DNA of 52,688 nt from the IMG/VR virus record IMGVR_UViG_2531839667_000013, one strand, 5' to 3'. The stretch's first letter is position 1. Each line of letters opens with the position of its first letter. Made by a program: the position numbers and the translations under genes. The DNA comes from a virus. Lineage: Duplodnaviria > Heunggongvirae > Uroviricota > Caudoviricetes. Below the pieces are notes generated by a model. The model did no database searches. It was given only the letters and a program-made list of their open reading frames with translations, and had not been told where the DNA came from. Of this stretch, positions 48,778-50,830 are shown piece by piece.

Positions 48778-49257
48778 TTAAAGAGACATTTTCCTGCGCT
48801 TCTGGCTTGATGGTTCGAACTCTGACGAGATACGAGATAGTTGGTCAAGACTCTGTTCAATTGAACGCTGGAACTCAACAGCGGCTTCTGTGCGTTGTTT
48901 TATGACTAAGGCTACTATTTCTTCATCACTCTTTTCTGAAATAGCCTTACGGTATAACACGCGTTCGTTAAATAAATCGAGATTGCCAGTTGATTTCGCT
49001 GATGTGTTAGCTTTTGAACTGCTGATGGGATTTAACTCGTCAATAAAGTATTCGATAAGAGATTCTCTCTTTTTTTCAAGTCTGCGAAGTTCGGTATGTG
49101 TAGATTTAAATTTCTGAGTCTTAACCAATGGAATATCATCAGAACGCAGTTTGCGATATTTATTTCTGTATTCTTCTATCGAAATATGATTTTTTAGTTC
49201 TTTGACTGTATTTACGTATTCGATTAAATCACTGTTGTCTGTTTTTACTTTTCTCAT
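48778..49257 (-). CDS. Hypothetical charged/coiled-coil protein (159 aa)
   Basis: Long ORF in AT-rich DNA; divergent from the 49484 gene. Confidence 0.45.
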   Translation of the reverse strand: MRKVKTDNSDLIEYVNTVKELKNHISIEEYRNKYRKLRSDDIPLVKTQKFKSTHTELRRLEKKRESLIEYFIDELNPISSSKANTSAKSTGNLDLFNERVLYRKAISEKSDEEIVALVIKQRTEAAVEFQRSIEQSLDQLSRISSEFEPSSQKRRKMSL

Positions 49258-49483
49258 AAGAAATACCTCGTAGATAAAATAGTGGATATATTTATATTAC
49301 GAGATATGGTGTAAGTGTCAAATTAACCGTTTGCAGCAATGTTTATTTCTATTGATTCATCTCGTCAATGTTTTTTGGTTGTTTATTATGGTCATGCTTA
49401 ATACATTAATAATGTTGTAAGAGACAAATGACATGGTGTATCATCAGGCTCGGGACGATGAAATAAAACTGAAGGTAGGAAAG

Positions 49484-50164
49484 ATGGATTCTATAGATAA
49501 AAGGTTTCTTGATTTTATTCGATCTAAGAAAAATAATATAGTATTGGACGATAAGAAGGATGATTTCAAAAAAGACGATGGCTCTAGTTCGAAAATGGCA
49601 GATTATTTGTTATTTAATAACGATGTTATTTTAGAGCAAAAATTACTTACAAATGACAGAACTGATTTAATAAATGAAAAAATTAATGAGCTAGCTAAGA
49701 CTGATGAATGGCTTAAAAGAAGTTGGTTCGGTAGGGTTCATATTGAGGAATTGATTCAAAAACACCCCGACTCAGATGCTTTCAGAAAAAAGATAATGGA
49801 TTATGCTTATAGAAATATAAAAGATCTTGTAGCAACCTCCAATAGACAGATTAGAGTAACAAAGGAATCTTTAAATATTCCTAGAGCAGTCGGTGGACTT
49901 GTTATTCTTAATGAATCGATAATGCCTTATGAATCTGAAAATGTAATGAAAGAACTTAATTTTCTTGTTGAAAATCCACATTATGAACATGTTGATTTTG
50001 TTCTCTATATATCAGAACTACGTAGATCAACACATAATATGATTGATATGTCAGCAATTATAAAAAGCAGCTCTCCAAGATATGAGTTTGTAAACTGGTA
50101 TATAAAAAACGTTTTCTCATTCGATTTCGCTTCATTTTTTAATCACCCTATACAATTTTTATAG
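49484..50164 (+). CDS. Hypothetical protein (226 aa); possible nuclease-like motif
   Basis: ATG with AGGAAAG RBS; ADYLLFNNDVILEQK could be read as a D-x11-ExK motif, but this is weak. Confidence 0.4.
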   Translation: MDSIDKRFLDFIRSKKNNIVLDDKKDDFKKDDGSSSKMADYLLFNNDVILEQKLLTNDRTDLINEKINELAKTDEWLKRSWFGRVHIEELIQKHPDSDAFRKKIMDYAYRNIKDLVATSNRQIRVTKESLNIPRAVGGLVILNESIMPYESENVMKELNFLVENPHYEHVDFVLYISELRRSTHNMIDMSAIIKSSSPRYEFVNWYIKNVFSFDFASFFNHPIQFL

Positions 50165-50248
50165 TAGGGTGGGAGTTTGTTAAAATGCATTGGCTTTATG
50201 GAGTTATCATTCAGATAGGAGTTGCTTGAGAAAATCTCTTTCTTGAAA

Positions 50249-50830
50249 CTACTGCGTTTTGCCTTGGCAATTAATTTTGTTCTCTTTAGTTTTAGCTTTT
50301 TTGTCCTTCAAGTAATAAGTTTTCATGAAGGTTAAGCGATCACCATTAAACATATAGTCTGGATTAATAAAATAATAGTTCTGTATCATGGTCTCAGCAA
50401 TAAATTTCTTGTCAGCAAGTTCTTTCATCCCTTTGAAATATGTCGTTCTTGATATTTTTACAATCTCTTGATCAACAATATCGAATGACATTAATATCGT
50501 ATCTGTATCTTTATTGTCTCTAATAGCAAGATACAGTATCTTAAATACTTTCTTACCTGATGAGGATAAACCCTCAATAGCTGATACGCCATCCACATAA
50601 AGCTTCACGAACTGTGTCTTGTCTACTTCCATTGACTGAAAGAAACCACCATGCCCAACCTGTTCTCCTGTATTTTCATTTACTACGGCTAAGCGGTCTT
50701 TTCCTGTTGTGATACGTCTGATACCTGTTTTTGTATGTATATTTGTATCATTAAGGAATGGGTTTTTTACATGGCGAGGTAGACCTCTTCTTGATTTCTT
50801 TACTTCCGTTTGTATCTTATTTTCTATCAT
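50249..50830 (-). CDS. Putative winged-helix DNA-binding protein, RepL-like (replication/maintenance or regulator)
   Basis: NENTGEQ...FVKLYVDGVSAIEGLSSSGKKVFKILYLAIRDNKDTDTILMSFDIVDQEI...ISRTTYFKGMKELADKKFI resembles the RepL family pattern as recalled. Confidence 0.3.
   Translation of the reverse strand: MIENKIQTEVKKSRRGLPRHVKNPFLNDTNIHTKTGIRRITTGKDRLAVVNENTGEQVGHGGFFQSMEVDKTQFVKLYVDGVSAIEGLSSSGKKVFKILYLAIRDNKDTDTILMSFDIVDQEIVKISRTTYFKGMKELADKKFIAETMIQNYYFINPDYMFNGDRLTFMKTYYLKDKKAKTKENKINCQGKTQ

What the first reader, a model, noticed from the sequence alone, without database searches (positions are those of the whole stretch)
48778..50830. Divergent pair of unknown proteins beside a RepL-like gene
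A 159-aa highly charged protein (-) and a 226-aa protein (+) are divergently arranged, followed by a convergent 193-aa RepL-like winged-helix gene. The 226-aa protein has a possible D-x11-ExK arrangement (ADYLLFNNDVILEQK) reminiscent of PD-(D/E)xK nucleases, but the evidence is a single motif. No function is recognisable for the other two.
Basis: inference. Interest (0 to 1): 0.5.

Follow-up and report, generated by a model that had tools for sequence, protein, structure and literature searches.

The report
Lone nuclease cassette inside a genomic island
The three genes are real but do not form one system: a 0.93-kb single-gene cassette encoding an uncharacterised restriction-enzyme-like nuclease, whose relatives sit in a known anti-phage hotspot of P2 prophages, has been inserted between two backbone genes of the known serU-type mobile island of pathogenic E. 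coli.

Summary
All three ORFs exist at the stated coordinates. The 159-aa protein is Pfam DUF4756. The 193-aa protein passes the Pfam RepL threshold and has homologues that are the only rep gene on 2.3-4 kb plasmids. The region is the AlpA/H-NS end of the serU island of UPEC CFT073, a relative of the ROD21-like (EARL) islands.

The "divergent pair" is an insertion artefact. An E. coli allele has RepL→DUF4756→H-NS colinear. The window carries a 931-bp insert (49325-50255) there, holding only the 226-aa gene. Other islands fill this slot with CoiA-like or unknown genes, or leave it empty.

Homologues lie in the P2 gpA-gpQ antiviral hotspot (catalogued, untested), behind a prophage cI repressor beside a DUF4238 defence gene, and near AbiU.

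The best reading is a stand-alone nuclease acting as single-gene defence cargo. That function is inferred, not shown. DUF4756 remains unassigned. Interest is moderate: a new member of a known kind.

The parts
49484..50164 (+). NUC226: a 226-aa stand-alone predicted PD-(D/E)xK nuclease from an uncharacterised family, with core D40-x10-E51-x-K53
49325..50255 (.). 931-bp single-gene cassette: NUC226 plus 159 bp upstream and 91 bp downstream. It is absent from the 'empty-site' allele, where 71 unrelated bp take its place.
   Evidence: blastn of the window against L033. Cassette dS against CFT073 is 0.008, while the flanking genes give 0.22-0.34. Promoter-like sites on the + strand at 49362-49389 and 49415-49444 are consensus matches only.
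48778..49257 (-). DUF4756 protein, 159 aa: an island backbone gene with an all-helical predicted fold and unknown function. Its 3' part overlaps the published hfp promoter region.
49294..49321 (-). Promoter-like site for DUF4756 (TTGACA-16-TAATAT). It is retained in both the filled and the empty site, and the cassette border lies 3 bp upstream of it.
   Evidence: Consensus scan, 10 of 12 matches. The shared sequence in L033 and the window ends at 49324. Function is inferred.
50249..50830 (-). RepL193: a RepL-family winged-helix protein, probably the replication initiator or a DNA-binding regulator of the island
   Evidence: Pfam RepL 25.0 bits > 20.3. 27-37% identical homologues on 198 plasmids, many of 2.3-4.2 kb. 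pEC21Z147-3K-3 (2543 bp) lists only mobA and repL. N156-P157 are invariant in relatives.
48216..48620 (-). Hfp/H-NSB, the full-length H-NS paralogue of the serU island and downstream neighbour of DUF4756
   Evidence: Pfam Histone_HNS_N plus Histone_HNS. 94.8% identical to the CFT073 protein. Literature: PMC2814080 and PMC7074111.
50831..51753 (.). 923-bp non-coding region upstream of RepL193. Positions 51172-51751 are conserved across related islands and carry two ~36-nt imperfect palindromes (51242-51281 and 51380-51419).
   Evidence: Repeats. 76-87% nucleotide identity to Citrobacter, Salmonella and Brenneria islands. 11 aligned copies. DNA hairpins of -11 and -8.5 kcal/mol, z -5.2 and -2.3. 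No Rfam match.

Best explanation
The locus is a junction of independent modules in a serU-type (ROD21-like) integrative island. It is not a three-gene system.

Backbone, all on the minus strand: a RepL-family winged-helix gene preceded by a long conserved non-coding region, then DUF4756, then the H-NS paralogue hfp.

Between RepL and DUF4756 lies a variable cargo slot. In this window and in the CFT073/Nissle lineage the slot holds a 931-bp cassette on the opposite strand. The cassette has its own promoter-like region and ribosome-binding site and encodes one 226-aa protein.

That protein is predicted to be a metal-dependent PD-(D/E)xK DNA endonuclease with catalytic residues D40, E51 and K53. 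There is no methyltransferase, antitoxin or partner gene in the cassette. Its relatives live in places where prophages keep exclusion genes. It therefore most likely acts as a single-gene defence nuclease against incoming phage or other foreign DNA. It would be either modification- or structure-dependent (Type IV-restriction-like) or activated by infection.

What is shown and what is inferred:
- Shown: the gene architecture, the insertion, family-wide invariance of the motif, the predicted fold placement, and the mobile or defence-rich contexts of homologues.
- Inferred: nuclease activity, the defence role and the target.

RepL193 probably binds DNA as an initiator or regulator for the excised island. 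DUF4756 is a conserved helical backbone protein of unknown role that is physically tied to the hfp promoter.
For: Island identity:
- Window 43701-46337 and 48216-52023 are 94-97% identical to the CFT073 serU island. It carries DUF6387, an AlpA-like gene, H-NST and Hfp.

Insertion:
- The empty-site allele L033 has RepL (97.8%), DUF4756 and H-NS colinear with a 155-bp gap. The window-specific segment is 49325-50255.
- Slot variability: CoiA-family plus a hypothetical gene in E. coli AVS0467; a 263-aa unknown in Salmonella; nothing in C. rodentium.
- Gene counts in 5426 E. coli genomes: NUC226 184, RepL193 461, DUF4756 631.
- Separate history: cassette dS is 0.008 against CFT073, versus 0.22-0.34 in the flanking genes.

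Nuclease:
- D40, E51, K53 and Q122 are invariant in 60 homologues of 21-41% identity.
- In the AF2 model (pLDDT 94.9) D40 sits at the start of strand 41-43 and ExK inside strand 48-55.
- 12 of 60 members give weak hits to Pfam REase_DpnII-MboI.
- Long relatives carry an Mrr_cat, SEC-C or TPR domain.

Defence context:
- 40%-identical homologues lie between gpA and gpQ in 10 P2-like phage sequences. This is the antiviral hotspot of Rousset 2022, where the gene is listed as system #63 with 67 occurrences.
- In Serratia fonticola the homologue sits 30 bp downstream of a cI/S24 repressor and next to a DUF4238 gene (Pfam 1.5e-30; PADLOC DUF4238-Pers 1.4e-15) and a serine integrase.
- A distant homologue lies near AbiU (2.4e-33) and PDC-S18 (7.5e-63).
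Against: - No experiment links any member of this family to phage resistance. Rousset et al. catalogued the P2 version, but its peptide is absent from their tables of tested systems.
- There is no match to any of 5027 PADLOC models, for the query or for 60 relatives beyond isolated weak hits.
- Profile search against PDB sequences finds nothing, and the query itself has no Pfam hit.
- The P2 version comes with a DUF2158 partner that the island cassette lacks, so a lone nuclease may not be a complete system.
- In Brenneria the nuclease and RepL193 are retained together at 85% and 91% identity while the rest of the island is 40-66% identical. This could mean a functional link to RepL rather than independent cargo.
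- How the host avoids self-cleavage is unexplained.
Confidence: 0.55

Rival explanations
1. The 226-aa nuclease works with RepL193 as an island DNA-processing or maintenance module. For example, it could cut or resolve replication or transfer intermediates of the excised island, or act against competing replicons, rather than act as anti-phage cargo.
For: The two genes are convergent with an 84-bp gap. In Brenneria corticis the NUC226 (85%) and RepL193 (91%) pair is kept without DUF4756 or H-NS, while DUF6387 is only 40% identical. In E. coli every copy of this allele lies next to RepL193. RepL193 belongs to a genuine small-plasmid Rep family.
Against: RepL193 occurs without the nuclease in about 277 E. 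coli genomes (461 against 184) and in the empty-site allele. Nuclease homologues in P2 phages, Serratia, Skermanella and marine contigs have no RepL neighbour. The cassette has a different divergence history from RepL193.
Confidence: 0.15
2. The nuclease is a selfish addiction or toxin gene. It could be the toxin of a toxin-antitoxin-like pair whose antidote is unrecognised (for example DUF2158 in P2), or a homing-type endonuclease that promotes spread of its own cassette.
Against: The island cassette contains no small partner ORF. 183 of 184 E. coli copies are full length, and dN/dS is 0.16. These findings are compatible with a tolerated, useful gene. No target-site duplication or repeat was seen at the borders (inspection only).
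Confidence: 0.12
3. One reading: the 159-aa and 226-aa genes form a divergently transcribed two-gene system, possibly together with RepL.
For: They share a 226-bp AT-rich intergenic region with promoter-like sites on both strands. They co-occur in 183 E. coli genomes.
Against: Each occurs without the other in many genomes. DUF4756 occurs without the nuclease in C. rodentium, Salmonella, ICEKp258.2 and at least 447 E. coli genomes. The nuclease occurs without DUF4756 in Brenneria, P2 phages and Serratia. The DUF4756 promoter-like site is intact in the empty-site allele, and the cassette border lies just outside it.
Confidence: 0.05

Closest known systems
serU island of UPEC CFT073/536 (PAI-CFT073-serU) and the related Enterobacteriaceae-associated ROD21-like (EARL) islands such as ROD21 and ICEKp258.2
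   Same: Nucleotide identity to CFT073 is 94-97% over DUF6387, AlpA, H-NST, Hfp, DUF4756, NUC226 and RepL. The island is low in GC and attached to serU. ICEKp258.2 also lists H-NS next to DUF4756.
   Different: The window allele carries a rare 437-aa MBL-fold gene in place of DUF6404, and a different segment at 52024-52453. A prophage with effector-like genes sits in serU to the left. The integrase, MobQ and pilus end of the island lies outside the window.
Rousset et al. 2022 P2-hotspot 'system #63 (DUF2158)', equal to ORF226 of P2-EC67 (AM157369)
   Same: A homologous 226-aa protein: 40% identity over 95% of the length, with the same D-ExK core. It is a small cassette in a mobile element.
   Different: The P2 cassette has a DUF2158 gene upstream and an ORF313 gene convergent to it, both absent from the window. 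It lies in a phage hotspot rather than an island slot. Neither version has a tested phenotype.
PD-(D/E)xK restriction endonucleases: BsmI and N.BspD6I catalytic domains, the DpnII/MboI family PF18742, and Mrr-type Type IV enzymes
   Different: There is no significant sequence match to any solved or curated family. A ~70-residue helical insertion (residues 60-129) follows the ExK strand. Foldseek does not recover the similarity. No DNA-recognition domain can be identified.
RepL/RepA initiators of small cryptic plasmids (Pfam PF05732; for example E. coli 2.5-4.2 kb plasmids and Bacteroides pBI143)
   Same: The Pfam match is above threshold. Identity is 27-37% over about 80-90% of the length, and an I-N-P motif is conserved in close relatives.
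   Different: It is chromosomal and sits in an integrative island. The origin is not identified. The functionally studied island wHTH protein SEN1990 of ROD21 had no detectable role in replication or maintenance (PMC10655114). SEN1990-like proteins are not detectably similar to RepL193.

Membership tests
PD-(D/E)xK nuclease superfamily (226-aa protein) | Conserved catalytic signature: an acidic residue, then (D/E)-x-K about 10-20 residues later | tested here: met
   D40, E51 and K53 are invariant in 60 homologues of 21-41% identity. D22, D58, Q122 and N143 are also (nearly) invariant.
PD-(D/E)xK nuclease superfamily (226-aa protein) | Alpha/beta core with the first acidic residue at the start of one strand and (D/E)xK on the following strand | tested here: met
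   In the AF2 model (pLDDT 94.9, pTM 0.89) there are strands at 41-43 and 48-55, preceded by helices 4-14 and 21-28, with further strands at 136-143 and 172-177. This is a prediction, not a solved structure.
PD-(D/E)xK nuclease superfamily (226-aa protein) | Significant structural similarity to solved members | tested here: inconclusive
PD-(D/E)xK nuclease superfamily (226-aa protein) | Divalent-metal-dependent phosphodiester cleavage | not testable with these tools
   This needs purified protein and active-site mutants.
Pfam PF18742 REase_DpnII-MboI | Score at or above the gathering threshold (27 bits) | tested here: not met
   The query has no hit. 12 of 60 relatives have only sub-threshold hits, the best E 1.6e-3 at 18.4 bits.
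Known anti-phage defence systems (PADLOC-DB 2.0.0) | Match to a defence-protein model | tested here: not met
   There is no hit for the query, the P2 homologue with its neighbours, or the Skermanella homologue. Only scattered single weak hits appear among 60 relatives.
Known anti-phage defence systems | Measured protection against phage | not testable with these tools
   The P2 homologue is listed in Table S5B of PMC9122126, but its peptide is absent from the tested-systems tables S2A/S2B.
Type II restriction-modification system | A cognate DNA methyltransferase encoded next to the endonuclease | tested here: not met
   The neighbours are DUF4756, H-NS and RepL. The cassette holds one gene and no methyltransferase domain was found.
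RepL family PF05732 (193-aa protein) | Pfam score above the gathering threshold | tested here: met
   25.0 bits against 20.3, E 1.5e-5, residues 49-169. The Brenneria orthologue scores 24.5 bits.
RepL family PF05732 (193-aa protein) | Homologues serve as the replication gene of autonomous plasmids | tested here: met
   198 plasmid records at 27-37% identity. In the 2543-bp E. coli plasmid, mobA and repL are the only listed genes. In pBI143 the match falls in an unlisted stretch of the gene table.
RepL family PF05732 (193-aa protein) | Supports replication of the element that carries it, from a nearby origin | not testable with these tools
   No origin was identified. For the non-orthologous ROD21 protein SEN1990, deletion did not change replication or maintenance (PMC10655114).
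DUF4756 PF15948 (159-aa protein) | Full-length Pfam match | tested here: met
   E 2.2e-63, residues 1-158 of a 158-position model.
serU island / EARL-type excisable island | tRNA-associated end with DUF6387 and an AlpA-type gene, plus H-NS and H-NST paralogues | tested here: met
   The 3' part of tRNA-Ser begins at about 43701. DUF6387 scores E 7.7e-53. The AlpA ORF is 95% identical to the CFT073 gene and 84% to a PF05930 gene. H-NS and H-NST are present.
serU island / EARL-type excisable island | Integrase, MobQ relaxase, TraD and type IV pilus module | not testable with these tools
   The window ends at 52688, before the position of these genes in CFT073.

The most novel reading that the evidence does not exclude
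The 226-aa protein may found a previously unnamed family of single-gene, methylase-independent defence nucleases. The family has at least 259 clusters at 50% identity. It occurs alone, or fused to Mrr_cat, TPR or SEC-C modules. It is exchanged as a ~0.9-kb cassette between P2-prophage hotspots, prophage immunity operons and a cargo slot of serU/ROD21-type pathogenicity islands. If so, these islands, known for virulence and H-NS paralogues, would also serve as carriers of phage defence in UPEC and in probiotic Nissle 1917.
Probability: 0.4. Interest if true: 0.5.

Novelty: new member of a known kind. Interest (0 to 1): 0.4.

Why it matters
The island itself, its H-NS paralogue and the RepL and DUF4756 annotations are already known. 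What is new is that the "hypothetical protein" between them belongs to a sizeable uncharacterised PD-(D/E)xK family, and that its only recognisable habitats are places where mobile elements keep anti-phage genes.

This turns a hypothetical gene present in CFT073, Nissle 1917 and ATCC 25922 into a cheap, well-defined test: one 931-bp clone and three point mutants. It also points to the RepL-DUF4756 junction as a variable cargo slot in a family of clinically relevant islands.

If the test is negative, the locus is simply ordinary island backbone plus one orphan nuclease.

Tried and rejected
- The word-indexed homology search for the 226-aa protein found only 5 near-identical proteins. Repeating it with the family alignment was capped and gave 7. 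Only the exhaustive search opened up the family.
With 4 sequences it found only two species-representative genomes.
- Sequence and profile searches of the PDB found nothing for RepL193 or the nuclease family.
- Foldseek against the PDB found nothing. The AlphaFold-database library was unavailable.
- The DUF4756 model gave only generic helical matches, so no function is proposed from the fold.
- hhalign between RepL193 relatives and SEN1990-like proteins was not significant, with very shallow profiles. I therefore do not claim they are homologous, only that they occupy the same position in the island.
- I considered that the P2 three-gene 'no predicted domain' system active against P1 might be this cassette. 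The peptide is absent from the tested-systems tables, so I rejected that.
- I considered an oriT in the hairpin at 51032-51050 followed by AGTGCG. Its fold is not better than shuffles (z -0.95) and the segment is not conserved in the C. rodentium island, so I dropped it.
- Rfam found nothing in the non-coding region.
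Full report
**Observation**

A longer 243-aa reading of the middle gene from 49433 is possible. The 226-aa start is preferred for three reasons:
- A Shine-Dalgarno AGGAAAG lies 4 nt upstream.
- RefSeq uses this start in CFT073.
- Homologue N-termini align to it.

Family assignments:
- The 159-aa protein is a full-length member of Pfam DUF4756 (E 2e-63).
- The 193-aa protein passes the Pfam RepL gathering score (25.0 against 20.3 bits).
- The 226-aa protein has no Pfam, NCBIfam or PADLOC family and matches only a PHROG of unknown function.

All three genes are under purifying selection, with dN/dS 0.07-0.16.

**Where this is**

From about 40 kb the window is low in GC. Window 43701-46337 and 48216-52023 are 94-97% identical to the serU island of UPEC CFT073.

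The gene order is: 3' part of tRNA-Ser, DUF6387, AlpA-like gene, small ORFs, the short H-NS homologue H-NST (46060-46347), the full-length H-NS paralogue Hfp (48216-48620), DUF4756, the 226-aa gene, and RepL.

The literature describes this island and its relatives, the ROD21-like (EARL) excisable islands, including their H-NS paralogues (PMC7074111, PMC2814080, PMC10763509). ICEKp258.2 also lists DUF4756 beside H-NS. The setting is therefore a known mobile island, not core genome.

**The 'divergent pair' is an insertion artefact**

An E. coli record (L033) carries RepL (97.8% identical), DUF4756 and H-NS on one strand, with only 155 bp between RepL and DUF4756. Aligning it to the window shows homology up to 50256 on one side and from 49324 on the other. 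So 49325-50255 (931 bp) is an insert that replaces 71 bp.

The insert holds only the 226-aa gene plus 159 bp upstream and 91 bp downstream. The DUF4756 promoter-like site (TTGACA-16-TAATAT, 49321-49294) lies just outside the insert and is present in both alleles.

The same slot is filled differently elsewhere:
- A CoiA-family gene plus a hypothetical gene in E. coli AVS0467.
- A 263-aa unknown in Salmonella.
- Nothing in C. rodentium.

Among 5426 complete E. coli genomes, the nuclease gene is in 184, RepL193 in 461 and DUF4756 in 631. Brenneria corticis has the nuclease (85%) and RepL193 (91%) but no DUF4756 or H-NS. P2-like phages have a nuclease homologue with neither.

The cassette also has its own history. 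Its synonymous divergence from CFT073 is 0.008, while the flanking DUF4756 and RepL genes show 0.22 and 0.34.

**The 226-aa protein**

An exhaustive search found 259 cluster representatives at E<=1e-3. The conserved part corresponds to residues ~3-180. It occurs alone (220-260 aa), with a C-terminal extension (330-360 aa), or as the C-terminal half of 560-740-aa proteins. Some of the long proteins begin with an Mrr_cat restriction-endonuclease domain or carry SEC-C or TPR elements.

In an alignment of 60 members at 21-41% identity to the query, D40, E51, K53 and Q122 are invariant. D22, A39, D58, G83, A119, T126 and N143 are nearly so.

AlphaFold2 on this alignment gave pLDDT 94.9 and pTM 0.89. 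D40 immediately precedes strand 41-43, and E51-x-K53 lie inside strand 48-55. A helical insertion at 60-129 ends in the helix bearing Q122, and further strands follow at 136-143 and 172-177. That is the canonical placement for a PD-(D/E)xK active site.

Structural comparisons:
- Foldseek finds nothing significant.

Twelve of the 60 relatives give sub-threshold hits to Pfam REase_DpnII-MboI over the motif region.

I rate 'PD-(D/E)xK nuclease' at about 0.8. It is strong on the motif and its predicted placement, and moderate on fold matches.

**Where its relatives live**

- tblastn found 40%-identical homologues in P2-EC67 (ORF226) and phage vB_EcoM-720R8, and eight more in IMG/VR P2-like contigs. 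They always lie between gpA and gpQ, preceded by a DUF2158 gene and followed by a convergent 313-aa gene.
- Rousset et al. 2022 showed that this gpA-gpQ interval is a hotspot of antiviral systems. Their Table S5B lists exactly this protein plus DUF2158 as system #63, with 67 occurrences. The peptide is absent from their tables of tested systems.
- In Serratia fonticola a 43% homologue sits 30 bp downstream of a cI/S24-type repressor on the same strand. Next to it are a DUF4238 protein (Pfam E 1.5e-30; PADLOC DUF4238-Pers E 1.4e-15) and a large serine recombinase, at the edge of an integrated element. Sitting behind the repressor resembles lambda rexAB behind cI; this is my inference from established phage biology.
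- A distant homologue on a marine contig lies near AbiU and PDC-S18 genes.
- A Skermanella plasmid copy lies between a recombinase and a GIY-YIG nuclease.

None of these proteins match a PADLOC model. The defence reading therefore rests on context only. I rate it at about 0.5.

**RepL193**

Beyond the Pfam match, tblastn finds 27-37% identical proteins on 198 plasmids, many of 2.3-4.2 kb. In a 2543-bp E. coli plasmid, mobA and repL are the only listed genes. A match also falls on Bacteroides pBI143. There are none in phages. This is a genuine small-plasmid initiator family, and close relatives of RepL193 keep an invariant I-N-P motif.

A caution comes from ROD21. [quoted passage not shown] The Salmonella and Citrobacter proteins that precede DUF4756 fit the SEN1990 residue numbering and are 40% identical to each other. 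They are not detectably similar to RepL193, although the Salmonella one just passes Pfam RepL at 20.9 bits.

A RepL-like wHTH gene at this position is thus a backbone feature, but whether RepL193 initiates replication is untested.

**DUF4756**

It usually precedes the H-NS paralogue but also occurs without it. The main hfp transcription start mapped in strain 536 is 339 bp upstream of the hfp ATG. That falls inside the DUF4756 ORF, at about window 48959. So part of its linkage to hfp may be regulatory DNA rather than protein function. I assign no function.

**Conclusion**

The proposed gene pairing is rejected.

The most likely mechanism is a stand-alone metal-dependent endonuclease carried as single-gene defence cargo in a variable slot of a known island. 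Rivals are an island-maintenance role with RepL (0.15), a selfish or toxin gene (0.12), and the original pair model (0.05).

This is a new member of a known kind, with moderate interest (0.4).

Noticed in passing
window 51172-51751 (palindromes at 51242-51281 and 51380-51419): A non-coding stretch upstream of the RepL-like gene is 76-87% identical across E. coli, Citrobacter, Salmonella and Brenneria islands, even where the adjacent wHTH proteins are unrelated by BLAST. It carries 2-3 copies, about 138 nt apart, of a ~36-nt imperfect palindrome: CAGC[G/A]nAGTGATTGT-N5-ACAATCACGAAn[C/T]GCTG. The arms are conserved and the centre is variable. The outer G:C pair switches to A:T on both sides in 9 of 11 copies. 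It could be an origin, an operator for a dimeric protein, or a hairpin element. The motif occurs nowhere else in the window.
   Followed up: partly
window 46691-48004 (-), inside the window-specific segment 46338-48215: A 437-aa metallo-beta-lactamase-fold protein replaces the DUF6404 gene of CFT073. It has weak hits to defence-associated MBL proteins: PADLOC LmuA 2.8e-10, RTasMBL 2.8e-9, PDC-M48B, and NCBIfam Avs1a and 6A-MBL. Only 3 of 5426 E. coli genomes have it, at 86% identity. It may be a second defence-like cargo in a second variable slot, the same slot that holds a SLATT plus CdnD-like pair in ROD21 according to PMC10655114.
   Followed up: partly
window ~33800-43760: A lambdoid prophage tail region lies directly left of the island: a 1158-aa J-like protein and a collagen-repeat fibre protein. 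It is followed by low-GC ORFs that look like type III effector genes (39829-40809, 41527-42231, 42417-42986). Only the 3' ~60 nt of tRNA-Ser remain at 43701-43760, and ARAGORN finds no intact serU. So the prophage appears to be integrated in serU next to the island. The effector identities come from my reading of the sequences and were not tested.
   Followed up: no
loci L011-L015 (IMG/VR contigs): Five 'viral' contigs contain the whole DUF6387-to-RepL island segment at about 97% identity, within 11 kb of a contig end. Prophage calls seem to overshoot into the adjacent island. This probably explains why DUF4756 and the H-NS paralogue have their own PHROG families.
   Followed up: partly
window ~48959, inside DUF4756 (48778-49257): The published main transcription start of hfp, 339 bp upstream of its ATG in strain 536, maps inside the 3' third of the DUF4756 coding sequence. 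That ORF therefore doubles as the H-NS-repressed hfp promoter region.
   Followed up: partly
window 49484-50164 compared with its flanks: The nuclease gene is 98.8% identical in nucleotides to CFT073 and Nissle 1917, while the adjacent DUF4756 and RepL genes are only about 93-95% identical. This points to recent recombinational exchange of the cassette between diverged islands.
   Followed up: partly
window 52024-52453 (ORF 52106-52489, 127 aa): This is another window-specific segment relative to CFT073. The 127-aa ORF has no Pfam match. It has a 47%-identical counterpart fused to the orf89 homologue in Brenneria (L009 7440-8126).
   Followed up: no
locus L009 6502-7308 (Brenneria corticis): A second RepL193 paralogue (268 aa, 32% identical) lies on the far side of the conserved non-coding region. 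In this island, therefore, two divergent RepL-like genes flank that region.
   Followed up: no
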